Assembly (NCBI GenBank): GCA_964506575.1
Contig: CAZDLY010000008.1
Span: forward strand, 20-64,019
DNA: 64,000 bases
DNA from: an uncultured Akkermansia sp.
GTDB lineage: Bacteria > Verrucomicrobiota > Kiritimatiellia > RFP12 > JAAYNR01
Direction of reading: 5' to 3'
The translations under genes and the position numbers were made by a program. The notes beneath the pieces are model-generated. The model made no database searches, was not told the DNA's origin, and was given only the letters and a program-made list of their open reading frames with translations. Below, piece by piece: positions 3,412 through 45,544 of the stretch. The first letter of the stretch is position 1, and every line of letters begins with the position of its first letter.

Positions 3412-3426
3412 GGCAGGCTCCTTTCT

Positions 3427-5610: not shown

Positions 5611-5633
5611 GCCGAACGATCCTTCCAAAAAAA

Positions 5634-6709: not shown

Positions 6710-6781
6710 TTGTTCCCTCCCGTGATCCCCCGGCCCGGACGAGGCGTCTGCCGGAACCGATGTGTTTCAAGTGGCGCACAT

Positions 6782-6799
6782 TGTACGGCATGCCGAACA
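6782..6799. promoter_or_regulatory. 18-bp near-perfect palindrome, candidate operator of the DtxR-type regulator
   Basis: The sequence TGTACGGCA|TGCCGAACA has one mismatch between its arms. It lies about 75 nt upstream of the regulator start, in the divergent intergenic region. Confidence 0.4.
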
Positions 6800-6905
6800 T
6801 TTTGTCAAGCGGGCGCGCCGCCGACGAATCAGATTGGCAAGACCGGCGATGCCGGATATACTGCTAACCCTTTGATACGACTCGACACAACCCTTGGGAG
6901 GACTC

Positions 6906-22609: not shown

Positions 22610-22882
22610 TCATTGCCTTATCTTGGGATGACGGGCAAAGAAAAGATAGGAGGGGGCGCGGGTGATGCCGGTAAACACAATGCAGGCGCGATCACCCGGG
22701 TGGGCCAGTTCACGCAGCGGCGGCGTCCCAATCGGGTGATCCAGCGCTTCCCTTATGGCGGCTTCGACATTCTGCAAGGGTTTCGCCTCCTGCGAGACGG
22801 CGACGGCCACCTGCATTGTCGAAGGCAGGGAAAATTCAAGGTGGGATTTGCCATAGGGGATTTTGTAGGTCTGATTCTTCAT
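22610..22882 (-). pseudogene. truncated N-terminal fragment of a LarA-type (DUF2088) lactate racemase-like gene
   Basis: The 90 aa MKNQTYKIPYGKSHLEFSLP...IREALDHPIGTPPLRELAHPGDRACIVFTGITRA follow the LarA N-terminal pattern up to the (S/T)D(I/V)TRP block and then stop. Full-length LarA is about 420 aa. Confidence 0.55.
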
Positions 22883-25419
22883 TTTTTTTCTTTGGAAATA
22901 AGGAACCCATCAATTTCATGTCCAGCCCGCATGCCCTCCGCCACACATTGCGACACAGAGGCGCCACCGTTGATCACGCCGCCACCGGCAAAGACTCCGG
23001 GCAACCCGCAGGCGAACGAGGCGCCTTCAGCCGTTTTGACCAGGCCCTTCTCGGTGAACGAACACGCCTTGAGAGCCGATGCCAGTGATGCTTCGAGGCC
23101 CAACCCCATGGCCTCAATGACGAGCGTGGATGCAAGCATTGTTTCAGGCATTGACGCCGCTTCAAGGGAGTCCCCCCAACATCTGCGAATGCGCAGCCCC
23201 GTCACCTGGCCGTCGGCATCCACGCGATATCCCAGAGGGCGGGTCATGGTCAGAAAATGGACCCCTTCCGTGCGGAACCACGAATCGTCCATGTGCCAAT
23301 GCATCTCGGAGAGTGGCCCGGCATAGACAATCAGCAATTCGCGCGCGCCCCTTTCGAGAGCGACCCTTGCGCTGTCCATCGCGCTGTCGCCGCCCGCCAA
23401 CAGAATCACCCGTCCGCACAGCGTTCTGACACGGCCGGCTTTGGCCTGGGAGAGAAAATCCAATCCCGCGACAACCCCCGTCGCCGCTCCCAGCGATTGC
23501 TCGCCCCAGACTCCCGTCGCCAGAAACAGAGCATCGTGGCCGCGCCGCATCTCATCCAGCGTCAGGTCCCGTCCCAGCGCAACACCGTACTGGATCACCA
23601 GGCGGGCCTGGCGCAAGGCAGGCATCAGGATGGCTTCCGCCTCGGCATGGGCACCAGGAAAACGGCTTGAGGGAATGACCTGTTCGGGGGTTCCACCCAG
23701 ACGCGAGGCGCGTTCGAAAAGCACGACCTGATGACCCTGCTCCAGCAGGGTCGCCGCACAGGATAGGCCTGCGGGGCCAGCCCCGACAACAGCGACTTTC
23801 TTACCGCTATCGCACGCGGGCACGCGGATGCCCGTCAGACCGTTCCGGCGGGCTTCCCAGGACACGACGTATTGGATGTCGTGGATGGGTATCGGGGCGC
23901 CATCCAGCGTGCCGGCGACGCACCGGCCTTCACAGAGCGCTCCAACCGGGCACAGGTGCGAACACATCTCCGACAGGGCATTCGCCTGGCGGAGGATGTC
24001 ATACGCCACCCCGGTCTCCCCCTCCGCGAAAGCTCTGAGAAATGCGGGAACATCAATTCGCGTCGGACACCCCGCGCGACAGGGCGCCGGCTCGCAGCCA
24101 CGGCAGCGTCTGGCCTCCTCCTTCAGGTTGTCCTGCGCAAAATGACGGCGGCTTCGATATTCCCCGCTGTAGAACGCACCGTCCCTAATCGCGCACCCCG
24201 CATGCCCGCCGTCCTTCATCAGCTGGACACAGGCATCACAATTGATACAGCAGTCATCCGGCTCCATTCTCCCATTCTGGAGCAGGTCCCCTGCCAGTGA
24301 AGGATAGGCCAGCGCGGCACGTCCGACGCCAATCAATGTCGCACCGCCCCCCTGCAGCACGCCTGCTGCCACATGGGGAAGAAAATGCCTGAACCAACTG
24401 AATCCGCCGACGACCACCGCAACCCCGGGCAGCGCCCTCTGCACGGTCCGTGCAACCTCCGCCACCCGCACAAAGCTCTCCAGCGGATGCGCGTTTACCC
24501 CGGATGACAGCGTGGCTTCCGCGAGAGCCGAAAGATTGAGCAAGTTCACTCCCGCCGCCTGCAGGCTCAGAGCCAGTTCCACAGGTTCAGTGGAATCCAT
24601 CCAGGCCGGATCGACAGAGATTCGTGAAGCCAGGAGCCTTCCGGGATGCGCTGCGCTGAGCTTGGCGATCACCTCACGGAGAAAACGACTCCTGTTCTTC
24701 AGGGAACCTCCATAGCGGCCCGGTCGCGTGACCGCACACAGCAGTTCTGCCGGCAGGTCATGGTAACAGGCTTTAATGTCTACGCCGTCGAACCCCGCGT
24801 CCATCGCCAGGCGGCCTGCGTTGACAAACGTTTCCTGAAGCGCATCCAGGTAATCATCGGACACCACAGACGAATCCGACGGGCTTCCCGCTTGCGGATC
24901 GCGGGTGGCGATCAGGGGCGCGGCCTCGCCCTGCGGGCGGCAGTAACGCCCGGCATGGGCCAACTGAAGGATCACGATGATTTCATGTCCCCGGCGACGA
25001 CGGGCTGTCGCTCGGATCTCCCGGACCAGTTCGGCAAAGGCATTGAGATTTTTCCGGTTCATCCACAACTGCCGCGGATTCGAGCGGCCAGGCCCATCAA
25101 CGGCGGCAGCCTCCAACCAAATCAGTCCAAAGCCACCCTCCGCATAGCGCCGGTAACGCCGGACGGTCAGCTCCCCGGGGGCGCCGCCTTCGTCGGCGTC
25201 GCATCCCTCCATGGGCTGGACGCAGAGCCGGTTGGGGATGTTCAGTCCATTGATCAAAACGGGTTCGCCCAGCACAGCGACATCCCTGGAGACGGGCAGT
25301 TCCATCCTCAGGCGGCTGGCTTCCTCACACAGCTCGTTCAGCGTCCGAATCCGAAACGGTTCAAATGGTGTCGCTTGGGTTTTCACGGTTTCGGCTTTTT
25401 CCGGCATCTCGTCGCTCAC
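22879..25419 (-). CDS. fusion flavoprotein: OYE-like NADH:flavin oxidoreductase TIM barrel + Fe-S linker + GltD/DPD-like FAD/NAD(P) oxidoreductase
   Basis: The N-terminal part has an OYE pattern (LNIPNRLCVQPMEG..., QLAHAGR). The middle has a Cys-rich GltD-type Fer4 region (CRGCEPAPCRAGCP...CSHLCPVGALCEGRC). A Rossmann motif KKVAVVGAGPAGLSCA follows. 846 aa. Confidence 0.8.
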   Translation of the reverse strand: MSDEMPEKAETVKTQATPFEPFRIRTLNELCEEASRLRMELPVSRDVAVLGEPVLINGLNIPNRLCVQPMEGCDADEGGAPGELTVRRYRRYAEGGFGLIWLEAAAVDGPGRSNPRQLWMNRKNLNAFAELVREIRATARRRRGHEIIVILQLAHAGRYCRPQGEAAPLIATRDPQAGSPSDSSVVSDDYLDALQETFVNAGRLAMDAGFDGVDIKACYHDLPAELLCAVTRPGRYGGSLKNRSRFLREVIAKLSAAHPGRLLASRISVDPAWMDSTEPVELALSLQAAGVNLLNLSALAEATLSSGVNAHPLESFVRVAEVARTVQRALPGVAVVVGGFSWFRHFLPHVAAGVLQGGGATLIGVGRAALAYPSLAGDLLQNGRMEPDDCCINCDACVQLMKDGGHAGCAIRDGAFYSGEYRSRRHFAQDNLKEEARRCRGCEPAPCRAGCPTRIDVPAFLRAFAEGETGVAYDILRQANALSEMCSHLCPVGALCEGRCVAGTLDGAPIPIHDIQYVVSWEARRNGLTGIRVPACDSGKKVAVVGAGPAGLSCAATLLEQGHQVVLFERASRLGGTPEQVIPSSRFPGAHAEAEAILMPALRQARLVIQYGVALGRDLTLDEMRRGHDALFLATGVWGEQSLGAATGVVAGLDFLSQAKAGRVRTLCGRVILLAGGDSAMDSARVALERGARELLIVYAGPLSEMHWHMDDSWFRTEGVHFLTMTRPLGYRVDADGQVTGLRIRRCWGDSLEAASMPETMLASTLVIEAMGLGLEASLASALKACSFTEKGLVKTAEGASFACGLPGVFAGGGVINGGASVSQCVAEGMRAGHEIDGFLISKEKK

Positions 25420-26375
25420 TTTGAGATTGAGCTTGGGGCGGATTCCGCGTCACGCCCCCCCTCCGCTTTTCCGGTCGCCGCAAGATAGATGACAAACTCC
25501 TCTTTCCCGTCAAGGCCGAGCAAGGCGTCCATGCGGGCCTGGTCATAACCCAGGACCGCGCATACCCCACCCTGGATGGATTCCGCGGCGAGGTAAAGAT
25601 TCTGGCAGAGGTGTCCGGCCTCGATGGCGATGAGCTTTTGCGCGATACTGCCGTAGTGCCATTCGGTCCGGACAGGAATCGCGGCCCAGACAAAGACCAC
25701 CGCCGAACGGCCAATGAAGGACTGTCCGTAGCAGGAAGCCATAGCCTGCGTATGGAGTGTCGCATCCTCCTTGATCAACAACAGTTGATGTTCCAACGGG
25801 AGGTAGCGATATAATCCGGGGGCGACACCCGCGACCCGGCTGATAATCAGGTAAGTCTCAAAGGGATGCCTGGCACCGCCTGAGGGGACCGTCCGGAATT
25901 GCGTAACAGGCTTCCCGTTCTCGTCCCGGTCAACCCTGGTAATACCCTGCGTGGCCCAGAGCAGAAAACTCAGTTCTTCGAGAGAGAACGGCGCCGACGT
26001 ATAGTTCCGTCTGCTGCACCGGTTACGGATAGCGTCCTTCACGCTGACCGTGCCGACCTTGAATTCAGAGGGGGCGACCAGGTCTAGCCGTTTTGCCTCC
26101 GCCGGATAAGGTTTCTGTGCGGGCGGGGGTTGCAGGCCCCGACGGTCATCGGTATCCGTCCGCCAATCGGATAACGTTCCCCGCAGAAAAGCGCGGCGCT
26201 GTTCGAGTGGCAGCGCATCAACACCCCGGATCGGTTCGCGAGGCACGGCCATCGCTGGATCGGCACGGGAGGTCAAAGGCAGGGCTGTCAGGAGAAGCAG
26301 AAGCACGAGGGCCATCAACGTGAAGGGCCCGTCTCCAGAACCAACGCGCGAACGCTTTTGACAGGGGATCATCAC
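25416..26375 (-). CDS. SagB/ThcOx-type nitroreductase-family dehydrogenase with N-terminal signal/TM segment
   Basis: RCSRRNYTSAPFSLEELSFLLWATQGI...TVPSGGARHPFETYLI...GLYRYLP matches the SagB-type dehydrogenase signature. A hydrophobic N-terminus is present (FTLMALVLLLLLTALPLTSRA). Confidence 0.7.
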   Translation of the reverse strand: MMIPCQKRSRVGSGDGPFTLMALVLLLLLTALPLTSRADPAMAVPREPIRGVDALPLEQRRAFLRGTLSDWRTDTDDRRGLQPPPAQKPYPAEAKRLDLVAPSEFKVGTVSVKDAIRNRCSRRNYTSAPFSLEELSFLLWATQGITRVDRDENGKPVTQFRTVPSGGARHPFETYLIISRVAGVAPGLYRYLPLEHQLLLIKEDATLHTQAMASCYGQSFIGRSAVVFVWAAIPVRTEWHYGSIAQKLIAIEAGHLCQNLYLAAESIQGGVCAVLGYDQARMDALLGLDGKEEFVIYLAATGKAEGGRDAESAPSSISK

Positions 26376-26386
26376 ACAACCTCTGC

Positions 26387-27793
26387 CTATGGCCTCTTCT
26401 TTTTGGGTGCGCTCTTCGGCTCTTCGTAAGTCTCAACGCCGGGCTCTTTCACCTCTTCAAGCAGGCGCTTGACGATCGTGATAGAGTTTATTCCCTCCGA
26501 GTCGGCGGAAAAGTTGGTCAGGATACGATGGCGCAACACCGGCATGGCGGCGTGTCGGACATCATTGCAGCTGACATGGATACGGCCTTCCAGCACGGCA
26601 CGCGCCTTGGCTGCCAGGATTAGGAACTGTCCAGCACGCGGTCCGGCGCCGGTCGAGACATACTTCTTGGTGAACGCCGGAGCCGTTTCCTCGCCAGGCC
26701 GGGTTGCCCGAACCAGCTTGACCGCATAGCTGACCACATGCGGGGAGACCGGGATTTTCCGCACCACCTCCTGCAGATGGATCACCGCCTGCTTGTCGAC
26801 CACCACCTTCGGTTCTCCGCCCGCCGACATGGTGGTCCGGGCGACGATCTCCATCTCCTCGTCCAGCGTCGGATAGTCTACAAAAATATTGAACATAAAC
26901 CGGTCGAGCTGCGCTTCGGGCAACGGGTAGGTTCCCTCCTGCTCAATGGGATTCTGGGTGGCCAGCACAAAGAATGGCTTGTCGAGCGTGTAGACCTCTT
27001 TCCCGACGCTGACCTGTTTCTCCTGCATGGCCTCCAACAACGCGGCCTGCGTTTTCGGCGGCGTACGGTTGATTTCGTCCGCCAGCAGCATATTACAGAA
27101 GATCGGTCCCTGCATGAAGCGGAATTCCTTCTGCTGGGTCACCCGGTCTGTTTCCAGCACCTCGGTCCCCGTGATATCCGACGGCATCAAGTCGGGCGTA
27201 AACTGAATACGCTTAAACTTCATATCCAGCACTTTGGCGATCGTATTGACGGTCAGCGTCTTGGCCAGCCCAGGCAAGCCGATCAACAGGGCATGCCCGC
27301 CCGCGATGATGCACATTAAAATCTCATTGAGCACGTCTTCTTGGCCGATAATGACCTTGCCCACCTCCCTGCGGATGGCATCCATGGATTCGCGCATCTG
27401 TTTGACCAACTGAAGGTCGCCATCCGTCGTCAAGCTTTTTTGTTCATGTTCAGGGGCGCTTTTCGGGGTGGGCGACGGAGCATGTCCAGCGCCTGGCTTC
27501 GCCTCATTCCTAAAGACAAAGATCGTACCGCCGACGGCGATGAGATCATTCTCCTTCAACGGGGAGGTCACGACGGCGGCATCATTGAGAAGGGTTCCGT
27601 TGGCGCTGTCGAGATCAGCCAGGCACCACACCCCTTTATCGTCGCAAAAAACTCTAGCGTGATGGCGTGACACCATCGCATCGTTCTCCAGCCTGATGGC
27701 ACACGTCTCATCACGCCCGACCACTATTTCACCGCCTGCCAAATCAAATGCCTGCCCCTCAAACTGCCCCTTCTTCACTAACAGACTAGCCAT
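26387..27793 (-). CDS. FHA domain - MoxR-family AAA+ ATPase fusion
   Basis: The N-terminus has FHA motifs (VVGRDETCAIRLENDAMVSRHHARV...LADLDSANGTLLND). A MoxR core follows a linker (IIGQEDVLNEILMCIIAGGHALLIGLPGLAKT, LADEINRTPPKTQAALLEAMQE). Confidence 0.85.
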   Translation of the reverse strand: MASLLVKKGQFEGQAFDLAGGEIVVGRDETCAIRLENDAMVSRHHARVFCDDKGVWCLADLDSANGTLLNDAAVVTSPLKENDLIAVGGTIFVFRNEAKPGAGHAPSPTPKSAPEHEQKSLTTDGDLQLVKQMRESMDAIRREVGKVIIGQEDVLNEILMCIIAGGHALLIGLPGLAKTLTVNTIAKVLDMKFKRIQFTPDLMPSDITGTEVLETDRVTQQKEFRFMQGPIFCNMLLADEINRTPPKTQAALLEAMQEKQVSVGKEVYTLDKPFFVLATQNPIEQEGTYPLPEAQLDRFMFNIFVDYPTLDEEMEIVARTTMSAGGEPKVVVDKQAVIHLQEVVRKIPVSPHVVSYAVKLVRATRPGEETAPAFTKKYVSTGAGPRAGQFLILAAKARAVLEGRIHVSCNDVRHAAMPVLRHRILTNFSADSEGINSITIVKRLLEEVKEPGVETYEEPKSAPKKKRP

Positions 27794-27814
27794 GGAAGCA
27801 CCCTTTCATCACCC

Positions 27815-28534
27815 TTATTTGTTCTTCTTATCGTTACTCATATCAATGTCACCCAGGTTCTTCACTTGATCCGTGACCCGGATGTTTGACAATAGATCCG
27901 AGTAATGGTGTATCGGATTGAGCAGACGGAGATCGACCGTCACGGGATAGAGATCCCTTTTCTGGACCACCTGCCAGCCCACGCCAACATCCTTCAACCA
28001 AATCAATTTGAACGTCCGGCGTCCCTGCCCTTTGAGTGGTTCGTAATCCGCGGTGACCGTTCCAGGGCCATCCCGGTACTGTGTCACCACGCACCGGGCG
28101 AAGTTGCCCCGTCCGGTGGTGCCGGCGATGCGGTGAACAGTCTTTTTGTTAAAAAACGGATCGGATTCGTTGACGATCTGGGTGATGCTTTGACGATCCT
28201 TATCTGTTAGCGTATCGGGTTCGAACGACAGCTGGAGGCCCTCAAAAAACTCATTTTCATAGATGACGAAGAGGTCATATTTTGCCATCGGCAGATTCCC
28301 GAACGCGAACTCCCGCCGGCTCGTACCGGAGATCTGCCCTTCGTAGACGAAGCGCGGTTCGTCAGGCGGCATGGCCAGTATCTGGAGGATCGGCAATTCC
28401 GGCTTAATGATTCGACCCGCGATCCCGCCTGAAGCGGACAGATCCGGTGCCGTATACAACCGGCCGCGTTCTTTTTCGGCAGCCCATGCCGACAGCGTCA
28501 ATAACAGCAGGCCAACACCCGCAATTCTTTTCAT
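27815..28534 (-). CDS. exported hypothetical protein (possible CarboxypepD_reg-like beta-sandwich at N-terminus)
   Basis: Has a signal peptide (MKRIAGVGLLLLTLSAWA) and an AGGGAG RBS before the ATG at 28534. GGIAGRII...FAFGNLPMAKYDLFV loosely resembles carboxypeptidase-regulatory-like domains. No firm family assignment. Confidence 0.55.
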   Translation of the reverse strand: MKRIAGVGLLLLTLSAWAAEKERGRLYTAPDLSASGGIAGRIIKPELPILQILAMPPDEPRFVYEGQISGTSRREFAFGNLPMAKYDLFVIYENEFFEGLQLSFEPDTLTDKDRQSITQIVNESDPFFNKKTVHRIAGTTGRGNFARCVVTQYRDGPGTVTADYEPLKGQGRRTFKLIWLKDVGVGWQVVQKRDLYPVTVDLRLLNPIHHYSDLLSNIRVTDQVKNLGDIDMSNDKKNK

Positions 28535-28554
28535 AAACAGCTCCCTATCGACGA

Positions 28555-30891
28555 TCACTCCTCGTTGCCGCCAAATACCGTCCGCTTACGGATTTCTTTC
28601 TCAAGCTTCTCAATGGCCGCGTCGGGTTCCTTCATGGCATACATGCAATCTTTAATCATTTGCAGGGCCTCGGGCAGGAAATTCGAAACGTCAACCTGGT
28701 CGCAATACGCGGTCAGAAGCTTGCGAGCCCGTTTGTAATCCTCCAACCGCATATACAGCTTGGCCTCGCAAAGAATGTAATCGCCGGAAATTTTAGCCAT
28801 CGGAAAGGCCCGTTCCCATCGTTGCAAGGCTTGGAACGCCTCCAGGTAGAATCCCTGGCTGATCAGCATGTCCACATATTCAGAGGCAGCCACCTCCCGG
28901 ATAGCGGCCAGTTTCCAGGTAGGCACATTCTGAGGCGCGCCCATCGGATCCTGAGGCGTGACCACCGGAACCAGACGGTTCTTCCCCTCCTTCGGGTCAC
29001 TCTTGCCACCCTTGACTAGCTTTTTCCGGGACTCAATGAGGTCACGCACCTTCCTCGGGCCTTCGAGCACGGGCCGCAGCGGGCCCTCGAGCACGGGCCG
29101 CAGTGGCGTTGTCTGGACCTTCTGGGCCTCGGCCTTGGAGCGGCTCTGGACATCCCCGTACCGTTGCGTGGCGGCGTTGATGTTACGAGAGAGAAACTCC
29201 AGATCTCCCATGCGTACCTTGGCCCATTCTCCCCCGTCGCCGCTGCTAGTGATCAGCGGAGTGATGATTCTTCTGGCGCCATCCAAATCATCCAGATAAT
29301 ACATCAGGACTTCCGCCTGCTTCAGCTTCAAGACCACGGACCGGGTCCCGGGAAAGACCTCCTCGCTGAATTCGGAAGCCCATTTCATCGCCTCCTTGGG
29401 CTTGCGGGGCCCCATGGAAAAGAGGGCGACATCCTGTAACAGGGCCTTCTTGTCGGGATCCAGCTTCTTCTTGAAAAAGTCCCACCGCTGCGTCACAACA
29501 TATTCCAGCAATGGGTTCGCGCCTTTCAGATCGAATACACGGAAGAAATTGTTCCACATCGCCGCATCCCATTGCGCGAGGGGGTCCGCCTGATCCGGGT
29601 AAGCCCTCAACATCGTATAGCAGGCCAGGTTAAAATCCTGCCGCGTATTCTCGTCGTCTAAGCTACTGCTGTGGCTTGCGCACGTATAGAAAATCGATCT
29701 GGCGGAGGCCTTCTTCCCCGCCACCTCCGCAGTCAGCGTCACCGGGGTGTATTTTCCCCCTTTAAAGAGCCAACGGATTTCGGGGCCGTCGATCCTGGCC
29801 TCCGGGGTTGTCTCCATATGCCAGCTGTACCGGGTTTCGGGCGGATTATTCTTTGTCCAGGCTTTCAGACCGTAAGCGATCAGTTCATCCTCTCCCGGGA
29901 ACACGAACACACTGGTGGACCGCACATCAAATGCGGCAACCGGCCCGGTGCGTGACTGGATATCGCGAACACGACACTGGCCGGATTTCACGACATGCCT
30001 GGCATCAATCAGGCACGATTCATTCATAGACGTTCCGGGATATCGCAGGTCTTTCGCGCGAGGACCGCCAAGCTCGCCAATGGTTGTCTTGGGTGTACGC
30101 CAGCTGAACATCATGGGACCGCTGGCTCTATTGGGGTCCACGCTGTATCCGTAGAGTTCCACTTTATGCAGACCCGCGGACAAATGAATCGTGTCTCCGA
30201 CACCGCCGACCTTCTCGTTCTTTTTGGCCAGCTTCAGCATCTTGCCGTCAATCGCGATCTCCATGTTGCCGGATCTTGCCTGGGGAGCAACCCAGGTGGG
30301 CCCTGGATCCGTGACTTGGATATACGCCAACATATACATGGCGCTACCTCCTGCCAGCCCCTCCGACATGGCCATTGGAATCGACTGGTTCCCCCAGGCG
30401 GCTGGCTTCCAGGCCTGATTAGCACATTCGGCCTTCGGGCCGACAGCGCCCAAGGCAGCCAGTCTCATCGCATCTTCCCTGTCCCGGGTTTCATTGATTG
30501 CACAGAGGATGGCACTGGGCGTCAGGCCGCTCTGCGGGGTCCAGAGGTTCAGTCTGCTGGCACTTCGAAAATAGACCACCACTTTCTCTCCAGCCTGAGG
30601 AGCTTCGAAGACCAGACCACACCCAGTATCTTTGCAATGCCACAGTATGCCACTCTTCAATGCATTGCCATTTTCATCAACCACAACCGACTCCGGCGTG
30701 GAGCCAGGCAGCAGCCCGCCATCCTGGATGAACACGAAATAGCCTGCACTCGGATGGCTGGGCGTGTTGACCAACTCCACCACGAACCGGACCGACGCAT
30801 CCTTAATCGCCCAGTCTCCGGAAATTTCAACCCCGGACGCAGAGAGCACAAAACCCGTAACCAGTATACCTAATGTTTTGATCTTCATCAC
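28555..30891 (-). CDS. large exported hypothetical protein, beta-rich N-half and TPR-like helical C-terminus
   Basis: Has a signal peptide (MMKIKTLGILVTGFVLSA). The C-terminal repeats (YLEAFQALQRWERAF..., AKLYMRLEDYKRARKLL) look TPR-like. It overlaps both neighbouring genes by 4 nt. No firm family assignment. Confidence 0.55.
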   Translation of the reverse strand: MMKIKTLGILVTGFVLSASGVEISGDWAIKDASVRFVVELVNTPSHPSAGYFVFIQDGGLLPGSTPESVVVDENGNALKSGILWHCKDTGCGLVFEAPQAGEKVVVYFRSASRLNLWTPQSGLTPSAILCAINETRDREDAMRLAALGAVGPKAECANQAWKPAAWGNQSIPMAMSEGLAGGSAMYMLAYIQVTDPGPTWVAPQARSGNMEIAIDGKMLKLAKKNEKVGGVGDTIHLSAGLHKVELYGYSVDPNRASGPMMFSWRTPKTTIGELGGPRAKDLRYPGTSMNESCLIDARHVVKSGQCRVRDIQSRTGPVAAFDVRSTSVFVFPGEDELIAYGLKAWTKNNPPETRYSWHMETTPEARIDGPEIRWLFKGGKYTPVTLTAEVAGKKASARSIFYTCASHSSSLDDENTRQDFNLACYTMLRAYPDQADPLAQWDAAMWNNFFRVFDLKGANPLLEYVVTQRWDFFKKKLDPDKKALLQDVALFSMGPRKPKEAMKWASEFSEEVFPGTRSVVLKLKQAEVLMYYLDDLDGARRIITPLITSSGDGGEWAKVRMGDLEFLSRNINAATQRYGDVQSRSKAEAQKVQTTPLRPVLEGPLRPVLEGPRKVRDLIESRKKLVKGGKSDPKEGKNRLVPVVTPQDPMGAPQNVPTWKLAAIREVAASEYVDMLISQGFYLEAFQALQRWERAFPMAKISGDYILCEAKLYMRLEDYKRARKLLTAYCDQVDVSNFLPEALQMIKDCMYAMKEPDAAIEKLEKEIRKRTVFGGNEE
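29057..29104. repeat. 24-nt tandem duplication inside the 778-aa gene
   Basis: GGGCCTTCGAGCACGGGCCGCAGC is followed by GGGCCCTCGAGCACGGGCCGCAGT (2 mismatches). The pair encodes PLRPVLEG-PLRPVLEG on the minus strand. Confidence 0.9.
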
Positions 30892-33800
30892 ATCACTTCA
30901 TTCAGCTTTTTATAATATTCGGCATTCAATTTTCGATATTTCTCAGGCGACAGCTCTTGATCAGCCTCGATCACATCCGTCAGGGTCGAGATGAAATTTT
31001 GTCCATCCAGGCTAGTTGCGCTCCCTTCGCCAAGTTCGGTCTTGGCTTTATTCAAGGCCCCGATCGCTTTGCGCCGCAGTTCCGCCATCTGACTGATGGG
31101 GACGCCCTTGGAGATCGCATCCGTGGCCTGGCGGATGTGGTGGGCCGCAGCCTCCAGCGAATCCGTACGCAGGCCTTTCATGGAAGCCTGCGCATACGCC
31201 TGGTTTGTCTTCTTGGCCATATTCTCCAGTGCCTGGGACCAGCTGCCGGCCTCGGTTGCGTTCATGCGATCCGTGCCGCCGCCGTCTCCCCAGTCATCAC
31301 CCTTGCCCGATCCGAGCTTGCCGCCTCCCGTGGCCTTCGTATCGGCTTCGCCATCTGCCGTGACCTGTCCGGACTGGGTGGGGTCCTGCGTGCGCCGCGC
31401 CTGGATCGCGTCATCCCCCTTCCCGATGGTGCCCGAACCGGCGGCGGTTTCTCCGCTCGACATTCCCTGGCGCCCGACATTCGACCGTCCGTCCTGCTCT
31501 TTGTGATCCGGAGCCTCGTTGCCAGACTTTCCCTTTGCTGAAAAGGCCGTGATATCGCCTTCCATGATTTCACCGCCGCTTTCCATGTCAGGGGCAGAGG
31601 CGTTGATTGCGCCGTCATCGGCCTCCTTGGCCAGCTGCTCGTCAATCTTCTGAAGATCACCAATGATATCCGCCAATGATGTTTGCAGGGGCGTCAGAGC
31701 GACTCCCTCCGGCATCTCTTCCTTGTCCGCAGCCTCCACGGTAATCTTGGTGGCGTCCGGTTCCTTGCCGAGCCACATTTCAAAATCGTCCAGCAGCTCT
31801 GTGGCTTTCTCCATTGCGTCCAGCAGGTATTCACGCTTGCTCACCGCCTTCTCCGCCACAGGCCCCCCGCCGGGTGTCTTCTCGCCGGAACCTGCCGTCT
31901 GCTTCACCTCTTCAAACGTGGAGAAGACATCCTCCACCAAGTCGTTCCCCACATTCAGGTGCGCAAATATATCGAGATCCTTGGGGATTTGAAGCATCGC
32001 ATCCTTGATATTCTTCTCAATCTCGGCGGCCTGCGCTTCCATGACATCGAAATCTTTGGTGTTCTTGTTTTTGTTAGCCTCGATGCTGTCCATTTCTTCT
32101 TTGAGCTTTTTCGCCATCTCCTTGAGTTTTTCCAGTTTGGCTTCCGCAACCTTGATGGCATCGATCATCTCCTCCTGCGTTTCCTTTTCACTCTTCGCAA
32201 GGACCTCCTCAAACCGTTTACGTGCGGCCTGAAGCTTGGTATAGGCATTGCGCTCATGCTGGACAGCGTCAGTCGCTTTGTTTCCCTCCAGCTGTTCGGC
32301 GGCGAGCAGCATGTCGTCACGGATCTTTTCCCTCTCACAGAACGTCGCGACGGATTCCACAAAAGCCGCCTGATCCTTATCTTCCCACTGACCGGACGAC
32401 GCTTCAGCCCTGCAAGCCTTAATGAAGGCGATGAGCTCTGAACTCAGCTTGTCCTGATGAGTCACAACCGACGAAGCCACCGCGACGTTCTGGGTTGCAC
32501 AGTTCAAGGTCGTCCGGAGGATCTCCGCCTGTCCGGTGATAATGCCGTCCAGGATGCCGATCAGAGAACTGGTTTTATTGGCCTCCTGTACCTTATTGGC
32601 CGACTCGCCTGCAAAGGTCAGTTGGCGCAAGATTTTTTCCTGCATGGAAAGCGCCAGGACGACCTGCTGGTCTTTCGCCGCGACATCCTTCACTTCAGGA
32701 ACCTTCCTCAATGCCGGAATCACCTCTGCCATTTCATTCACATACAGTTTCTTGACCGTTGCCATCAGGTTTCCAAAAATGCCGTCACCGCCCTTTTCGA
32801 CCAGCAGCCTCACCGTCTTCCGGATGAGTTCCTGCTGTTCCACCCTTTCATTCCATTGTTCATCCTGAGAGGCCATCAATTTTCCCTGAAGCTGTTTGGT
32901 GCGGTCGATATTCTCGCGCTGGAGTTCAATCACCTGACTCAGCCCTTCAGCGGCCTTCTTGAACTCCTCCTGTCGCTTTTTCGCCGCTGACGAAAGATCC
33001 TCCCGTTCAAAACTGAGCATCGGCGAGATCGTCACGTTTGGGGATTCCGCACGATTGTCCTTCGCGACAACCCGCAACGTGAGGCTACCCGTATCGGCCG
33101 TCTTCCGAATGTCACCCTTCCACAGGAAGGAAAGGTCTTGGCCTCGGTATTCCTCCCGGCTGTAGCGCTTCAGTATCTTGGGCTGTTCAGCCGTGTCCCC
33201 GGGACCGGGGAGTTGCTCGATGATGATCTCGCTGAACCCGAAATCATCGGAAACGGAGAAGTCAATGCTGGGCGCAAAGCCGGGCGGCAGGGGCACGGGC
33301 TTCTGGGGATAGTTGACCGTGAGCACCGGGGGCCTGTCCGGGAGGAGGTTAAACCCCATTACGGCCTCGGCCTCGTCCCCATTCGTCGCCACTGCGGCAA
33401 GCTTCAGGGCGGCCCCGTTGGTCATGGTGAGGGTGGCGACGCCATTCCGGCTCTCTCCTTTCAGCACCAGGTTCATAGGTTCGCCCATCCCGGAAAGGAC
33501 AAGCGAGCGCAGCGGGGTGTTGCACGCGGCCGTCAGTTCGGCCTTCGAACCGTACGGGATGTCGATCGCCTTCGACTGCCCGTCATACTTCCGTGCGGGC
33601 AACCCCATATAGGCGGGCGGGACCACCTTCAGCAGAAGGGAGTTGAACGCCAGGGGTGGCCGCAAGGTAATCTCATTCCAGCCCGCGACATAGGCGTCGC
33701 CGGCCCGGAAGCGGTATTTCAAGGCCGTCGTGACCTTGTTCAGCGTATAGGAAAAAACCTCTGATCCGGCACCTGTGATCGTACCCAGATTATAGGTTAT

Positions 33801-34487: not shown

Positions 34488-34489
34488 AA

Positions 34490-35137
34490 CTACTCTCCTT
34501 TCTTCACCGTAACCTGGCTTGGCAATTTCACAATCTTAACATTGGCGAGATAGAAATTGCCTGCGCCATAAGTCGCCCCGGGCACGAATATCAGGACTGT
34601 GAGATACCTGACTTTTTGCAAGTGGCTGAAGGCAAGCTCCGAAATCTCCGGCATGGGAAACTCCACGCTGACGCTCTCCCAGGCGGCCCCGTTCACATCC
34701 ACGCTCGCCGCCTTGTAGGTGCGCCGCATATCCTGAATCAGCGGTTTATCGTCCGGCGGAATTCCCGGTTTCAGGTTATACCCCTGGAACAGTATCTTCA
34801 CGCTCACGGCGTCAACAAGAATGTCAAACGTGCACTTGTACCGATCCCCCGTCTTGTACGGAATCAGCGGTGTTTCGACCTTTGACTCGTATCCGGACGG
34901 CACGGCCATTTTCAATACATTCTTTTTGCCTCGGAACTCCGGCAGATAAGAAACATTGAGATGATTGCCCATCTGGTGCTTGTTGGCCGTCCAGTCAAAA
35001 TCGATATTCCAACCGTCAAAATGGCCCTTCTCCGAATCGAACGAGTGGTTATAACATACGTTCTCATCGACAGCCTGGGATGACAGCGTCATGGCCAGAC
35101 CACCGATCATGCACCCCAAAAACTGCATCCACTTCAT
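34490..35137 (-). CDS. exported hypothetical protein (possible CBM/jelly-roll fold)
   Basis: Has a signal peptide (MKWMQFLGCMIGGLAMTLSSQA). The 215-aa sequence is beta-rich (GWNIDFDWTANK...). It lies 2 nt from the downstream gene. Confidence 0.5.
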   Translation of the reverse strand: MKWMQFLGCMIGGLAMTLSSQAVDENVCYNHSFDSEKGHFDGWNIDFDWTANKHQMGNHLNVSYLPEFRGKKNVLKMAVPSGYESKVETPLIPYKTGDRYKCTFDILVDAVSVKILFQGYNLKPGIPPDDKPLIQDMRRTYKAASVDVNGAAWESVSVEFPMPEISELAFSHLQKVRYLTVLIFVPGATYGAGNFYLANVKIVKLPSQVTVKKGE

Positions 35138-35187
35138 AACGATCCTCCGTGAGAGATTCCGTTTTCGTTTGCAATTATACCACTTTA

Positions 35188-44521: not shown

Positions 44522-44589
44522 ATCACGCGATTAGAGCTTCATCCTCTGACATCCCACGCAAACGATCTCCTTCATTCAACACGCCGTCG

Positions 44590-45387
44590 TCACCGAGGTT
44601 TGGCCATGACACTCCAATGATTCCCGTCTGACAACACGATAATGTAAGTGCCCACATAAATAAGATTAACGTTGTTCACCCAGTCGCCCTCCTCACGGAT
44701 CAAGGAACGGCCCTCTCCCGTCTTGAACTCAACCCCATTCTTGGAGCCCGGAACCATGCGGACCGGTTTAAGATCCATGCGTTCGGCATACCTCAGGTTC
44801 AAGGCGTCCTTCAGATCTGAACGTAGCCCCAATACTGCCGATTCCAGATCATAGCGTTGGGTTTCCATCCCCTTAATCAAACTTCCCCTCCGATAGACCC
44901 ACGGTTTGCCCCAGCGATCCGTCAAGGGGAGCGGGGCTTTGTCTCCGAGCGCTTTGACCGCCTCCAATGAAGCGGGGAACTCCATATCGCGCCTGTAGCT
45001 CTCCGTCAGCGCATGCGTCACGTGCTCCCGGTCCATCCGGCTGAGCCAGCTCCGAGCCATCTCATCGCCCGCCTTCCGGAGCCCCGTCGCGGGGCCCTTG
45101 ACCAGCAGGGTAGTGAAGATCGCAGCTGCGGTGCCCGTGTCGCCCCGCTTCAGGCGATTCCATGCCTCAAGTCCAGAGACCACAACTGTGAACGCATCTT
45201 GCGGCGCACGGGCTCTGAATGTTGTGCAAGCCTCCGCAACCTCCGAGGCTTCGAAGGCGCTATTCGTGCCGACGCACCAGACATCCCACAGGCCTTTTTC
45301 ATCAGCTCTGACGGATTGCGCACGGCCTGCCATGGCAACGGCCAGAAAAAGCACCACGCAAACTTCAACTTTTAACATCGATTTCAT
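44590..45387 (-). CDS. exported hypothetical protein
   Basis: Has a signal peptide (MKSMLKVEVCVVLFLAVAMAGRAQS). 265 aa with no recognisable family. It is the first gene of the minus-strand block. Confidence 0.5.
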   Translation of the reverse strand: MKSMLKVEVCVVLFLAVAMAGRAQSVRADEKGLWDVWCVGTNSAFEASEVAEACTTFRARAPQDAFTVVVSGLEAWNRLKRGDTGTAAAIFTTLLVKGPATGLRKAGDEMARSWLSRMDREHVTHALTESYRRDMEFPASLEAVKALGDKAPLPLTDRWGKPWVYRRGSLIKGMETQRYDLESAVLGLRSDLKDALNLRYAERMDLKPVRMVPGSKNGVEFKTGEGRSLIREEGDWVNNVNLIYVGTYIIVLSDGNHWSVMAKPR

Positions 45388-45544
45388 ATTCGCGGGTTCA
45401 GTATACGGTGGGAGAGGGGAGAGTCAATCCATTTTTTCAACTATCATCGGGCGGTTTCTCCTTCCCGCTCGCTTTTTCCGTCCTGACGCGGTATAGTTCT
45501 TCCAATCCTTCACCACTCAATCGGAAATAGAGGGGAGCAACGTT

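What the first reader, a model, noticed from the sequence alone, without database searches (positions are those of the whole stretch)
22610..45387. 23-kb lower-GC, single-strand super-operon: MoxR/DUF58/vWA/BatA/DUF4159/DUF4175 envelope system extended by YcaO, a Cys-rich small protein and a redox tail
All 16 ORFs in this block are on the minus strand, separated by 68 nt or less or by 4-nt overlaps; the only larger gap (~280 nt) holds the internal promoter. Sampled 60-nt lines give roughly 45-55% G+C, against about 65-70% in the flanking pckG and malic-enzyme genes. These are hand counts of a few lines, not a full scan.

The core is the poorly understood Bat-like (aerotolerance-operon-type) set, but three features are non-canonical:
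- The MoxR ATPase is at the distal end of the operon and is fused to an FHA domain.
- The set is preceded by a YcaO enzyme and a small CCCC-containing protein driven by a near-consensus internal promoter.
- The set is followed by a SagB-type dehydrogenase and an OYE-GltD flavoprotein that are translationally coupled to it.

Six further exported or membrane proteins have no family I can name. YcaO and SagB-type dehydrogenases are the two hallmark enzymes of azole-forming peptide maturation. Finding both at the ends of one MoxR-vWA operon suggests a possible link between peptide or protein backbone modification and a chaperone-like envelope assembly system. That link is pure inference. No mobility genes are present, so the compositional difference may also reflect the secreted/membrane protein content.
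Basis: partly seen in the sequence, partly recalled or inferred. Interest (0 to 1): 0.75.

Follow-up and report, generated by a model that had tools for sequence, protein, structure and literature searches.

The report
Conserved envelope system with peptide-modifying enzymes
A 15-gene membrane/periplasm system conserved across three related bacterial phyla joins a poorly understood MoxR/Bat-type envelope machine to enzymes known for converting cysteines in peptides into thiazole rings, and to a small exported protein with four consecutive cysteines that is their probable target.

Summary
The gene layout is real: 15 co-directional, tightly packed genes plus a 90-aa LarA remnant.

In 66 species-level loci carrying this YcaO (Kiritimatiellia, Lentisphaerota, Verrucomicrobiota), 59 hold other cluster genes. 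In 49 of 63 loci, YcaO sits directly after the GltD/OYE flavoprotein and SagB-type gene. The window's end-to-end placement is a lineage-specific permutation.

New findings:
- The small "CCCC" protein is a conserved cluster member (about 200 relatives, no Pfam or NCBIfam family).
- It is the detached N-terminal proline-rich tether of the DUF4159 protein. More distant relatives carry it fused, with a proline run where this clade has CCCC.
- The SagB-type enzyme has a signal or lipoprotein peptide in every lineage, so it is extracytoplasmic.

Best reading (inferred): cytoplasmic YcaO cyclodehydrates the Cys4 run, Sec exports the peptide, and the exported SagB-type enzyme oxidises it. The result would be a rigid polythiazole tether used by the MoxR/VWA/DUF4159 complex.

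The low G+C is real (0.565 against 0.656; GC3 0.68 against 0.82) and specific to this genome, which favours lateral acquisition. I found no prior description.

The parts
45400..45427 (-). Promoter-like site upstream of the first gene of the block (TTGACT-16-TATACT, 10 of 12)
   Evidence: This is a consensus match only.
44590..45387 (-). Exported 265-aa protein with no named family. It is a conserved cluster member ('unk265').
   Evidence: No Pfam or NCBIfam hit. N-terminal hydrophobic signal. Orthologs at 28-80% identity lie inside the cluster in Kiritimatiellia, Lentisphaerota and Verrucomicrobiota loci.
43235..44521 (-). Standalone YcaO (428 aa, cytoplasmic)
   Evidence: PF02624 at 1e-48; TIGR00702 at 91 bits, above its cutoff. 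The ATP/Mg glutamate motifs are invariant in 27 orthologs and align with E. coli YcaO. The AF2 model has pLDDT 86.8 and matches all YcaO structures about equally. No E1-like, ThiF-like or TfuA partner was found among the cluster products.
43070..43099 (-). Near-consensus sigma-70-like promoter in the only large intergenic gap, ahead of the small gene
   Evidence: TTGACC-18-TATAAT, 11 of 12.
42638..42952 (-). Small exported proline-rich protein (104 aa). It has a signal peptide and the mature sequence 'GDGSDEPGFVPPP...PPAPPR.ISSAET.DPCCCCPVT..ARTEAKKPPQPP..IKLK'. It is the probable substrate and tether module.
   Evidence: The conserved start and sequence are seen in about 30 genome loci and 80 metagenome loci. 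There are 99 clusters in the 5.8-billion-protein database, all labelled 'hypothetical' and with no Pfam domain. It is fused to the DUF4159 N-terminus in L118, L147 and P0217-P0219, and in at least 22 proteins of about 500 aa among more distant relatives.
41281..42591 (-). Periplasmic DUF4159 protein (436 aa, two DUF4159 stretches)
   Evidence: PF13709 at 1e-65. The family profile hits the uncharacterised structure 4i66. Rosetta-stone fusion with the small protein.
40572..41276 (-). Exported 234-aa protein with no named family; conserved cluster member
39591..40544 (-). DUF58 / VWA-like protein (cytoplasmic partner of MoxR)
   Evidence: PF01882 at 1e-45. Orthologs at 51-89% identity.
37386..39584 (-). 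BatA-type membrane protein: N-terminal double transmembrane domain, VWA domain and C-terminal transmembrane helix
   Evidence: PF07584 at 2.7e-15, VWA_2, TIGR02226. Hydrophobic segments.
35188..37389 (-). GATase1_like membrane protein (733 aa, N- and C-terminal transmembrane helices)
   Evidence: PF07090 at 1.6e-7. Conserved next to BatA in nearly all loci.
34490..35137 (-). 215-aa protein with no named family; conserved cluster member
   Evidence: The family profile gives only non-significant beta-sandwich hits. The single-sequence AF2 model was unusable (pLDDT 41).
30888..34487 (-). 1199-aa membrane protein (three N-terminal transmembrane helices, long coiled-coil/low-complexity region). Not DUF4175 by HMM.
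   Evidence: Orthologs at 34-81% identity always follow the 215-aa gene.
28555..30891 (-). 778-aa protein with no named family; weak C-terminal TPR-like signal
   Evidence: Conserved; it follows the small gene in the Chthoniobacterales-type architecture.
27815..28558 (-). 247-aa protein with no named family; conserved directly upstream of MoxR
26387..27793 (-). FHA-MoxR AAA+ ATPase
   Evidence: AAA_3 at 4e-63, FHA at 2e-15, AAA_lid_2. The fusion is conserved in 35 of 36 loci.
25416..26375 (-). Exported SagB-type nitroreductase-fold flavoprotein
   Evidence: TIGR03605 at 125 bits against a cutoff of 78. Best PDB relatives are 3eo7, CyaGox, 8pz5, BmdC and McbC. Invariant RRS.R, PSGG.R.P.ETY and RTEW(H/K/R)Y motifs. 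Signal peptide or lipobox in every ortholog examined.
22879..25419 (-). OYE (FMN) + 2x[4Fe-4S] (Fer4_20) + GltD-type FAD/NAD(P)H flavoprotein, cytoplasmic
   Evidence: Directly upstream of YcaO in 49 of 63 loci. The OYE domain is absent in about 7-9 loci, so the GltD/Fe-S part is the constant piece.
22610..22882 (-). 90-aa remnant of a LarA-type racemase. It marks the distal edge of the low-GC block and is not part of the system.
   Evidence: Lar_N at 2e-13 covering profile positions 1-67 of 204; NCBIfam LarAH hits far below cutoff. G+C 0.571 and GC3 0.67, like the block. A full-length LarA lies beside MoxR and YcaO in L003.

Best explanation
WHAT IT IS
The block is one conserved, multi-compartment envelope system of the PVC bacteria.

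Its chassis is a MoxR-type machine:
- a cytoplasmic FHA-MoxR AAA+ ATPase and DUF58;
- membrane BatA-VWA, GATase1-like and 1199-aa proteins;
- periplasmic DUF4159 plus five exported proteins with no named family.

Grafted onto this chassis is a three-enzyme module that travels as a unit: an exported SagB-type flavoprotein, then a cytoplasmic GltD-type Fe-S flavoprotein (usually with an OYE domain), then a standalone YcaO.

The fourth added element is a small exported proline-rich protein. It is the detached N-terminal tether of the DUF4159 protein. In this clade, an ancestral proline run has been replaced by four consecutive cysteines.

MOST LIKELY MECHANISM
1. The small protein is made from its own strong promoter.
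2. In the cytoplasm, YcaO uses ATP to cyclodehydrate the Cys4 run to thiazolines.
3. The peptide is exported by Sec through its signal peptide.
4. At the outer face of the membrane, the SagB-type flavoprotein oxidises thiazolines to thiazoles. This gives a rigid polyazole segment where relatives have polyproline.
5. The modified tail, with its invariant 'R-T-E-A-K-K-P-P-x-P-P' motif, docks onto the DUF4159/VWA complex. The invariant Glu may act as a MIDAS ligand of a VWA domain.
6. FHA-MoxR and DUF58 drive assembly or remodelling of that complex.

SHOWN
Gene content, order and co-conservation; the gene fusion; export signals; catalytic motifs.

INFERRED
The identity of the substrate; the chemistry; the order of steps; the role of the GltD/OYE protein (electron input or reduction step unknown); the physiological output of the whole system.

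IN THIS GENOME
The whole block was probably acquired laterally from a lower-GC Kiritimatiellia lineage.
For: CO-CONSERVATION
- 75 species-level loci with orthologous YcaO (46-94% identity), all from PVC phyla.
- 59 of 66 loci with enough flank carry other cluster genes. NitroR->GltD/OYE->YcaO are contiguous in most.
- The same 15 genes recur in at least four permuted architectures.

SMALL PROTEIN
- It is conserved at 60-86% identity across phyla. In several independent architectures it sits immediately next to YcaO or the enzyme trio: YcaO->small; small->NitroR->OYE->YcaO; small->YcaO->rSAM.
- The Cys-rich core (CCCC, CCCCC or CCSCC) is present in every locus where the small gene and YcaO are seen together.

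FUSION AND CORE CENSUS
- The same sequence forms the N-terminus of DUF4159 proteins of about 500 aa (L118, L147; at least 22 database representatives).
- In a census of 213 family members, 93 have a Cys-rich core; all but one of these are under 140 aa, the exception being 149 aa. 71 have a Pro-rich core, of which at least 22 are fused full-length proteins.

ENZYMES LOOK COMPETENT
- YcaO ATP/Mg motifs are invariant.
- NitroR scores above the SagB-family cutoff. Its closest solved relatives are azoline oxidases. The FMN-phosphate motif RRS.R and the (K/H/R)-Y motif are conserved.
- A B12-radical-SAM gene, a typical peptide-modifying enzyme, joins the cluster in some loci.
- Standalone azoline-forming YcaOs exist (bottromycin BotC; from established knowledge, not tested here).

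COMPARTMENTS
- Signal or lipoprotein peptides are present on NitroR in all orthologs examined, and on the small protein.

LATERAL ACQUISITION
-; no boundary repeats.
Against: - No chemistry was observed. Modification of the Cys4 run is inference from gene association.
- YcaO cannot be assigned to the azoline-forming class. HMM scores are higher for the S12-accessory and McrA-thioamidation types than for TOMM SagD. The structure match does not discriminate.
- No E1-like, RRE or TfuA partner is present.
- The dehydrogenase is on the opposite side of the membrane from YcaO. Flavin loading after Sec export would be unusual.
- Some family members have cores with one Cys or none (GGCT, GSSG, GGGG).
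- The role of the GltD/OYE protein is unexplained. Its OYE domain is dispensable in some lineages.
- In seven YcaO loci no other member of the Bat-like chassis or its associated exported proteins is visible; two of these (L025, L036) still have the OYE/GltD gene directly upstream of YcaO.
Confidence: 0.42

Rival explanations
1. The system is one functional unit, but the YcaO/SagB-type/GltD trio acts on something other than the small protein. Candidates are another cluster protein or a small-molecule or cofactor-like substrate. On this reading the Cys4 run is a metal-binding or thiol-redox site in the periplasm. NADPH-derived electrons from the GltD-type Fe-S flavoprotein and the exported flavoprotein would then handle redox chemistry, in line with the 'aerotolerance'-type role historically proposed for Bat operons.
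For: - The co-conservation is the same as for the main explanation.
- YcaO scores closer to non-azoline YcaO families.
- The SagB-type domain is extracytoplasmic, away from ATP and YcaO.
- Two of the three enzymes are redox flavoproteins.
- Cys-poor cores exist in the family.
- MoxR/VWA pairs are classically metal-cofactor insertion or maturation chaperones (established knowledge).
Against: - No membrane electron conduit (cytochrome or DsbD-like) is found in the cluster.
- Four contiguous cysteines are a poor geometry for most metal sites.
- The only established activity of the SagB/McbC/ThcOx family is azoline oxidation (established knowledge); the closest solved relatives are given.
- The small gene is repeatedly placed right beside YcaO.
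Confidence: 0.27
2. The YcaO, SagB-type and small-peptide genes form an ordinary linear azole-containing peptide (TOMM/LAP) antibiotic gene cluster. It merely lies next to a Bat-like operon.
For: YcaO plus a SagB-type dehydrogenase plus a Cys-rich small ORF is the textbook signature of such clusters. Tools such as antiSMASH would call it one (knowledge; compare the LAP description in PMC7298704).
Against: - The association with Bat-like genes holds in 59 of 66 loci across three phyla and through several rearrangements.
- The peptide is conserved along its whole length at 60-86% identity, about as well as the enzymes. It does not show the variable core expected of antibiotic precursors.
- It carries a Sec signal peptide and is fused to DUF4159 in relatives.
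- No leader protease, ABC exporter or immunity gene is present.
- The dehydrogenase is exported.
Confidence: 0.04
3. The lower G+C of the block reflects the amino-acid content of secreted and membrane proteins, or low expression, rather than lateral acquisition.
For: GC1 and GC2 are also lower in the block. No integrase, transposase, tRNA or boundary repeat was found.
Against: - GC3 differs most (0.68 against 0.82, p about 1e-6).
- The orthologous clusters in 45 other genomes are not G+C-depressed relative to their flanks (mean +0.014).
- The nearest relatives lie in genomes of 0.48-0.58 G+C. Nucleotide homology ends exactly at the block edge (45391), and the flanks are not syntenic.
- A truncated LarA marks the other edge.
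Confidence: 0.25

Closest known systems
Bat (Bacteroides aerotolerance)-type MoxR operons (MoxR-DUF58-BatA/BatB VWA proteins) of Bacteroidota, Spirochaetes and Francisella
   Same: It has a MoxR AAA_3 ATPase, DUF58, and a BatA N-terminal double-transmembrane domain with a VWA domain. All are co-directional and tightly packed. The function is likewise unresolved (literature).
   Different: - MoxR is fused to FHA and sits distally.
- No BatB-E-type VWA+TPR or SH3 proteins were recognised.
- Instead there are DUF4159, a GATase1-like membrane protein, a 1199-aa coiled-coil membrane protein and five exported proteins with no named family.
- It also carries a YcaO/SagB-type/GltD module and a Cys4 mini-protein, none of which is part of any described Bat operon.
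Thiazole/oxazole-modified microcin (TOMM/LAP) biosynthesis: YcaO cyclodehydratase plus SagB/McbC-type FMN dehydrogenase acting on a Cys/Ser/Thr-rich precursor
   Same: YcaO has intact ATP-binding motifs. The SagB-family dehydrogenase scores above the family cutoff and has a conserved (K/H/R)-Y motif. A small Cys-rich ORF lies beside YcaO under its own promoter.
   Different: - There is no E1-like, Ocin-ThiF or RRE partner, no leader protease and no exporter.
- The 'precursor' is phylum-spanning, conserved over its whole length, carries a Sec signal peptide and can be part of a 500-aa periplasmic protein.
- The dehydrogenase is exported or lipid-anchored.
- A GltD/OYE Fe-S flavoprotein is an obligatory third enzyme.
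YcaO-dependent modification of a housekeeping protein (McrA thioglycine by YcaO±TfuA; E. coli YcaO with ribosomal protein S12)
   Same: A standalone YcaO that is highly conserved across phyla, with a conserved protein rather than a variable natural-product precursor as the likely target. HMM scores are nearest to these classes.
   Different: No TfuA is present. The context is an envelope system. A SagB-type oxidase is present, which is not needed for thioamidation.
Signal-peptide-bearing RiPP-like peptides modified in the cytoplasm and exported by Sec (bufferins, made by MNIO/DUF692 enzymes); recalled from knowledge, not tested here
   Same: A Cys-containing small protein with a Sec signal peptide is presumably modified before export to form a heterocycle from Cys.
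   Different: The enzyme families differ (YcaO/SagB rather than MNIO). There is no evidence for metal binding here. The peptide is tied by gene fusion to DUF4159.

Membership tests
Bat-like MoxR (MRP-type) / VWA operon | MoxR AAA+ ATPase of the AAA_3 family | tested here: met
   PF07726 at 4.4e-63 plus AAA_lid_2.
Bat-like MoxR (MRP-type) / VWA operon | Adjacent DUF58 protein | tested here: met
   PF01882 at 9.8e-46. In the same operon, but separated from MoxR by seven genes.
Bat-like MoxR (MRP-type) / VWA operon | BatA-type protein: N-terminal double-transmembrane domain followed by a VWA domain | tested here: met
   PF07584 at 2.7e-15, TIGR02226 at 7e-19, VWA_2 at 5e-8.
Bat-like MoxR (MRP-type) / VWA operon | BatB-BatE-type partners (a second VWA+TPR protein, a TPR protein, an SH3-type protein) | tested here: not met
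   No second BatB-type VWA+TPR protein was found. There is only a sub-threshold TPR signal in the 778-aa protein (E 0.04). The remaining exported proteins match no family.
Bat-like MoxR (MRP-type) / VWA operon | Aerotolerance or stress phenotype | not testable with these tools
   Requires genetics.
TOMM / linear azol(in)e peptide biosynthetic cluster | YcaO cyclodehydratase with ATP/Mg-binding motifs | tested here: met
   PF02624 at 1e-48. Invariant E76/E79, E176/E179/R180 and E271/Q274/R276. The SagD subfamily model scores only 50.7 bits against a cutoff of 219.
TOMM / linear azol(in)e peptide biosynthetic cluster | E1-like/Ocin-ThiF partner or RRE domain for leader recognition | tested here: not met
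   None among the 16 products by Pfam or NCBIfam. YcaO is standalone at 428 aa.
TOMM / linear azol(in)e peptide biosynthetic cluster | SagB/McbC-type FMN dehydrogenase with Lys-Tyr motif | tested here: met
   TIGR03605 at 125 bits against a cutoff of 78. PDB relatives are CyaGox, McbC and BmdC. RTEW(K/H/R)Y has an invariant Tyr; Lys appears in about half of orthologs and His in the window. Atypically, the protein is exported.
TOMM / linear azol(in)e peptide biosynthetic cluster | Precursor with a conserved leader, a variable Cys/Ser/Thr-rich core, a leader protease and an exporter | tested here: not met
   The peptide is conserved throughout, has a Sec signal peptide and is fused to DUF4159 in relatives. 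No protease or ABC transporter is present.
TOMM / linear azol(in)e peptide biosynthetic cluster | Azol(in)e heterocycles in the product | not testable with these tools
   Requires mass spectrometry or in vitro reconstitution.
YcaO-TfuA thioamidation system | TfuA partner adjacent to YcaO | tested here: not met
   No TfuA domain in any cluster product, nor in the called genes of the four YcaO-centred loci looked up with Pfam annotation (L001-L005, and the P0199 contig).
   No hit even at E<=10. The resemblance is limited to general architecture (N-terminal transmembrane helices plus a low-complexity tail).
Genomic island (laterally acquired block) | Compositional deviation from the flanks, including synonymous sites | tested here: met
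   G+C 0.565 against 0.656; GC3 0.68 against 0.82; p about 1e-6. Not seen in 45 related loci.
Genomic island (laterally acquired block) | Mobility genes, a tRNA target or flanking direct repeats | tested here: not met
   No integrase or transposase domains. No Rfam hit, tRNA included, in the window. No shared repeat of 11 nt or more at the two edges.
Genomic island (laterally acquired block) | Break of synteny or homology at the block edges relative to the closest relatives | tested here: met
   Nucleotide homology to L006-L008, L084 and L086 starts at 45391. Flank genes have no counterparts there. A truncated LarA lies at the other edge.

The most novel reading that the evidence does not exclude
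In three PVC phyla, a structural periplasmic protein tether carries a ribosomally encoded run of four thiazoles. It would be made by a split pathway: a cytoplasmic standalone YcaO, Sec export, then a periplasmic, often lipid-anchored, SagB-type oxidase. The thiazole run would have evolved as a chemical replacement for an ancestral polyproline segment of DUF4159 proteins. This would be the first housekeeping, non-antibiotic azole modification embedded in an envelope machine. It would also be the first extracytoplasmic azoline oxidase, and the first biochemical handle on what MoxR/BatA/DUF4159 systems do.
Probability: 0.33. Interest if true: 0.85.

Novelty: new variant of a known kind. Interest (0 to 1): 0.72.

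Why it matters
- Bat-like MoxR/VWA operons and DUF4159 proteins are widespread and have had no mechanism for two decades. A conserved, chemically tractable substrate-enzyme set inside one such system makes the question experimentally approachable: co-express the 104-aa protein with YcaO and read the mass.
- YcaO/SagB chemistry has so far been tied to diffusible natural products or a few cytoplasmic housekeeping proteins. An exported SagB-type enzyme and a phylum-spanning conserved target would widen that picture.
- Genome-mining tools probably mis-score these loci as antibiotic (LAP) clusters in Verrucomicrobiota, Lentisphaerota and Kiritimatiellota. The finding warns against that reading.
- The small-protein family, six further conserved families and the Pro-rich tether motif of DUF4159 proteins have no Pfam or NCBIfam model. 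They could now be defined.

Tried and rejected
- DUF4175 label for the 1199-aa protein: no Pfam hit even at E<=10. Rejected.
- Anti-phage defence reading (MoxR-vWA conflict systems): no PADLOC hit apart from trivial Rossmann matches. Rejected for lack of support.
- Rfam scan of the window for regulatory RNAs or tRNAs: nothing.
- Assigning YcaO to a functional class: PDB sequence search and a good AF2 model with Foldseek match E. coli YcaO, LynD, MjYcaO and MusD about equally. Uninformative.
- Folds of the proteins with no named family. The single-sequence AF2 model of the 215-aa protein had pLDDT 41 and was discarded. Family profiles against PDB gave only a non-significant galectin-like hit for the 215-aa protein and nothing for the 778-aa protein. 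DUF4159 hits only an uncharacterised structural-genomics entry.
- Testing whether Cys-less variants of the small protein lack YcaO. The third homolog search, using the L081 fragment of the 1199-aa protein, returned a single unrelated-contig hit and was wasted. Look-ups of six Pro-core DUF4159 proteins show no YcaO in view, but the flanks are too short to prove absence.
- Literature: no paper combines YcaO with MoxR; DUF4159 appears only in a Pfam release paper; Bat papers do not mention YcaO.
- Akkermansia lead, from memory only. I suspected that the Akkermansia 'mucin utilization locus' periplasmic complex might be homologous. The primary paper is not held, and the citing papers give no domain content. 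It remains an unverified lead.
- Boundary direct repeats for an island: none of 11 nt or more.

Full report
1. THE OBSERVATION

- Neighbouring ORFs overlap by 4 nt five times. Otherwise they are 2-68 nt apart.
- The single large gap is 282 nt. It lies between the YcaO stop (43235) and the conserved start of the small gene (ATG at 42952, preceded by GGAAGGGAG).
- That gap contains TTGACC-18-TATAAT (43099-43070), an 11 of 12 match and the best in the block.
- A 10 of 12 site precedes the first gene (45427-45400).
- The total number of promoter-like hits is not above chance, so only their placement is notable. No convincing terminators lie inside the block.

Domain calls were checked with Pfam and NCBIfam. 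In transcription order the genes are:

| # | Product | Coordinates |
|---|---|---|
| 1 | exported 265-aa protein, no family | 44590-45387 |
| 2 | YcaO | 43235-44521 |
| 3 | small protein | 42638-42952 |
| 4 | DUF4159 | 41281-42591 |
| 5 | exported 234-aa protein, no family | 40572-41276 |
| 6 | DUF58 | 39591-40544 |
| 7 | BatA N-terminal double-TM + VWA | 37386-39584 |
| 8 | GATase1_like membrane protein | 35188-37389 |
| 9 | 215-aa protein, no family | 34490-35137 |
| 10 | 1199-aa membrane protein, no family | 30888-34487 |
| 11 | 778-aa protein, no family (sub-threshold TPR) | 28555-30891 |
| 12 | 247-aa protein, no family | 27815-28558 |
| 13 | FHA + AAA_3 MoxR | 26387-27793 |
| 14 | nitroreductase fold; SagB family TIGR03605, 125 bits against cutoff 78 | 25416-26375 |
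| 15 | Oxidored_FMN + Fer4_20 + Pyr_redox_2 | 22879-25419 |
| 16 | 90-aa Lar_N fragment | 22610-22882 |

DUF4175 is not detected even at E<=10. The flanks are GTP-PEPCK and malic enzyme.

Composition. Block genes average G+C 0.565 and GC3 0.68. The 28 other genes of the window average 0.656 and 0.82 (Mann-Whitney p about 1e-6 for both).

2. IS IT ONE SYSTEM?

The best YcaO hits are Kiritimatiellia proteins at 80-90% identity. Orthologs at 53-62% occur in Lentisphaerota and Verrucomicrobiota.

Neighbourhoods of three distant orthologs showed Nitroreductase -> OYE/GltD -> YcaO contiguous on one strand. The trio was embedded among DUF4159, DUF58, BatA, GATase1_like, MoxR and the large proteins with no named family.

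A scan of one genome per species gave 75 loci, all from PVC phyla. A tblastn matrix of all window proteins against these loci shows:
- 59 of the 66 loci with at least 6 kb of flank contain other cluster genes, and 47 contain three or more.
- OYE/GltD is directly upstream of YcaO in 49 of 63 loci.
- Most exceptions are the window's own Kiritimatiellia clade, where YcaO heads the cluster and the other two enzymes close it.

Several recurrent orders exist:
- the window type;
- ...1199 -> 778 -> 247 -> MoxR -> NitroR -> OYE -> YcaO -> small;
- BatA -> GATase -> 215 -> 1199 -> NitroR -> OYE -> YcaO;
- a divergent pair, [small -> 778 -> 247 -> FHA-MoxR] opposite [DUF4159 -> 234 -> 265 -> DUF58 -> BatA -> GATase -> 215 -> 1199 ...].

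The 15 genes therefore behave as four movable modules of one conserved set.

Further points:
- The FHA-MoxR fusion is present in 35 of 36 loci.
- The OYE domain is missing in about 7-9 loci, so the GltD/Fe-S part is the constant element.
- A B12-radical-SAM gene joins the cluster in some lineages.

3. THE SMALL PROTEIN

tblastn and an HMM found the small protein in about 30 of the YcaO-centred loci. It is usually right after YcaO.
- It is about 85-105 aa long.
- It has a conserved signal peptide ('LAATLC.GT.LAG').
- The mature sequence is 'DGSDEPGFVPPP..R.PPPAPPR..SSAET..(P/A)CCCCPVTP.(A/S)RTEAKKPP.PP..ITKLK'.

A database search returned 99 clusters, all labelled 'hypothetical' and with no Pfam domain. 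A metagenome scan returned more than 229 confirmed sites, of which 80 were kept.

The segment between 'SAET' and 'P..RTEAKKPP' varies. It is CCCC in about three quarters of members. Other forms are CCCCC, CCSCC, SCGCC, GGCC, GGC(T/V), GSSG, GGGG, SGGA and PYPPPP.

The sequence is also found fused in frame to the mature N-terminus of DUF4159 proteins.
- Examples: L118 and L147 (514-525 aa, with CCCC) and P0217-P0219.
- A profile search of 1.84 billion representatives found 117 members. Many are DUF4159 proteins of about 480-535 aa.
- Their N-terminal region reads '(lipobox-Cys)GPPPP.KP..R..GGE(G/S)(F/L)PPLPLPA(T/V)PLRRTEKK(N/R)PP.PP.L..K....DW...P.D..NLL'.

In a census of 213 proteins:
- 93 have a core with three or more Cys. 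All but one are under 140 aa; the exception is 149 aa.
- 71 have a Pro-rich core, and at least 22 of these are full-length fusions.

The small protein is therefore the detached N-terminal tether module of DUF4159 (lipo)proteins. The Cys4 run occupies the position of an ancestral proline run.

More distant loci with Pro-core fusions still carry the chassis DUF4159 -> 265-like -> DUF58 -> BatA -> GATase1_like -> 211-aa protein -> ... -> 1196-aa protein, with no YcaO in view (L166). However, flanks are too short to prove that YcaO is absent.

4. THE ENZYMES

YcaO.
- It is standalone and cytoplasmic, and its ATP/Mg motifs are invariant.
- HMM and structural comparisons do not place it in a functional class.

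SagB-type protein.
- Its closest solved relatives are azoline oxidases and their kin: 3eo7, CyaGox, 8pz5, BmdC and McbC.
- RRS.R, PSGG.R.P.ETY and RTEW(H/K/R)Y are conserved. The last is the Lys-Tyr position of azoline dehydrogenases, and its Tyr is invariant.
- Every ortholog examined begins with a signal peptide. About half have a lipobox cysteine (LSGC, FAAC, IACSC and others). The enzyme is therefore extracytoplasmic. I know of no other SagB-family member for which this is true.

Third enzyme. It is a cytoplasmic NAD(P)H/FAD/2x[4Fe-4S] module, usually with an OYE FMN domain. Its role is unknown.

No E1-like, RRE, TfuA, protease or exporter genes are present.

5. MECHANISM

Shown:
- a conserved 15-gene set;
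- the gene fusion linking the small protein to DUF4159;
- enzymes that appear catalytically competent;
- the compartment signals.

Inferred, as the most parsimonious chemistry:
- YcaO cyclodehydrates the Cys4 run before export.
- Sec exports the peptide.
- The exported SagB-type enzyme aromatises the thiazolines.

The resulting rigid polyazole would functionally resemble the polyproline it replaces. The invariant Glu in 'RTEAKK' is a candidate MIDAS ligand for the BatA or DUF58 VWA domains, with FHA-MoxR powering assembly or remodelling.

I give this composite 0.42. The claim 'one conserved system' alone is about 0.85.

The main rival (0.27) keeps the single system but makes Cys4 a redox or metal site, or gives the trio another substrate. 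The reading as an ordinary LAP antibiotic cluster is nearly excluded (0.04).

6. THE ISLAND QUESTION

- In 45 related loci the cluster is not lower in G+C than its flanks (mean +0.014).
- The nearest relatives of the window's cluster (83-89% nucleotide identity) lie in genomes of 0.48-0.58 G+C.
- Homology begins exactly at 45391, and flank genes are not shared.
- The other edge is marked by the truncated LarA, which has the block's composition.
- No mobility genes, tRNA or boundary repeats were found.

Lateral acquisition or replacement from a lower-GC Kiritimatiellia lineage, followed by partial amelioration, is the better explanation (about 0.65). The rival is an effect of amino-acid content or expression level.

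7. COMPARISON AND NOVELTY

The chassis meets three of the Bat/MoxR operon features (MoxR, DUF58, BatA-VWA) but lacks BatB-E.

The enzyme pair meets the YcaO and SagB criteria of TOMM clusters. It fails the partner-protein and precursor-architecture criteria.

Full-text searches found no paper linking YcaO to MoxR or Bat systems, and nothing on DUF4159 beyond Pfam. NCBIfam (June 2026) has no model for the small protein or the six proteins with no named family.

I class the finding as a new variant of known kinds, with a one-in-three chance of being a new type of protein modification (see the novel case).

Noticed in passing
window 22610-22882 (-): A 90-aa N-terminal remnant of a LarA-type nickel-pincer racemase overlaps the stop codon of the OYE/GltD gene by 4 nt. 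It has the low-GC composition of the block and marks the block's distal edge. A full-length LarA lies between YcaO and MoxR in a Verrucomicrobiota single-cell genome (L003 11526-12773).
   Followed up: partly
L082 10001-10459 (phage-like contig; terminase at 3281-5095, portal at 5627-7741): A phage contig encodes a Cys-less homolog of the small protein (core 'PYPPPP'). It is fused to the first ~40 residues of the mature DUF4159 protein (P0217; P0218 and P0219 are similar). This may be a phage-borne mimic of the tether module.
   Followed up: partly
L081 8092-9856; L155 458-2719; P0278, P0299 and P0310 (~690 aa): In lineages whose small protein is Cys-poor, an ECF sigma factor gene is followed by an anti-sigma-like protein. 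Its periplasmic C-terminus is a DUF4159 domain preceded by a Pro-rich linker, and it lies directly upstream of the small gene. This suggests DUF4159 can serve as a sensor or ligand-binding domain.
   Followed up: no
L001 1-1762; L004 1681-3543; L161 start; P0199 contig: A B12-binding radical-SAM enzyme is an accessory member of the cluster in some Lentisphaerota and Victivallales-type loci. In one case the order is small -> YcaO -> rSAM -> DUF4159. It is absent from the window.
   Followed up: no
L027, L028, L029, L030, L036, L038 (gene directly upstream of YcaO): In these loci the flavoprotein lacks the OYE/FMN domain and consists only of the Fer4_20 + GltD-type part (~400 aa).
   Followed up: partly
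L003/L033 1460-1753 and 1997-2290; L112 10001-10279 and 10412-10627; L102: Some genomes carry two tandem copies of the small gene with different cores (CCCCC twice; CCSCC plus GGCC; CCCC plus GGCT). In L112, L151 and L157 the small gene lies away from any other cluster gene.
   Followed up: no
window 47728-48978 (-): An AAA_14/DUF4143 ATPase gene 2.3 kb beyond the block also has low GC3 (0.67), unlike its neighbours. It may be another foreign gene.
   Followed up: no
L006 3999-4329: In the closest relative (YcaO 94% identical) the small gene is split into two frames. This is either a frameshift or an assembly error.
   Followed up: no
L041 (Akkermansiaceae MAG), L009, L011, L059, L079: A minority of orthologous YcaO genes have no other cluster gene within the visible flank (up to 10 kb on each side, and much less on one side in four of the five loci). 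The enzyme can therefore be separated from the cluster.
   Followed up: no
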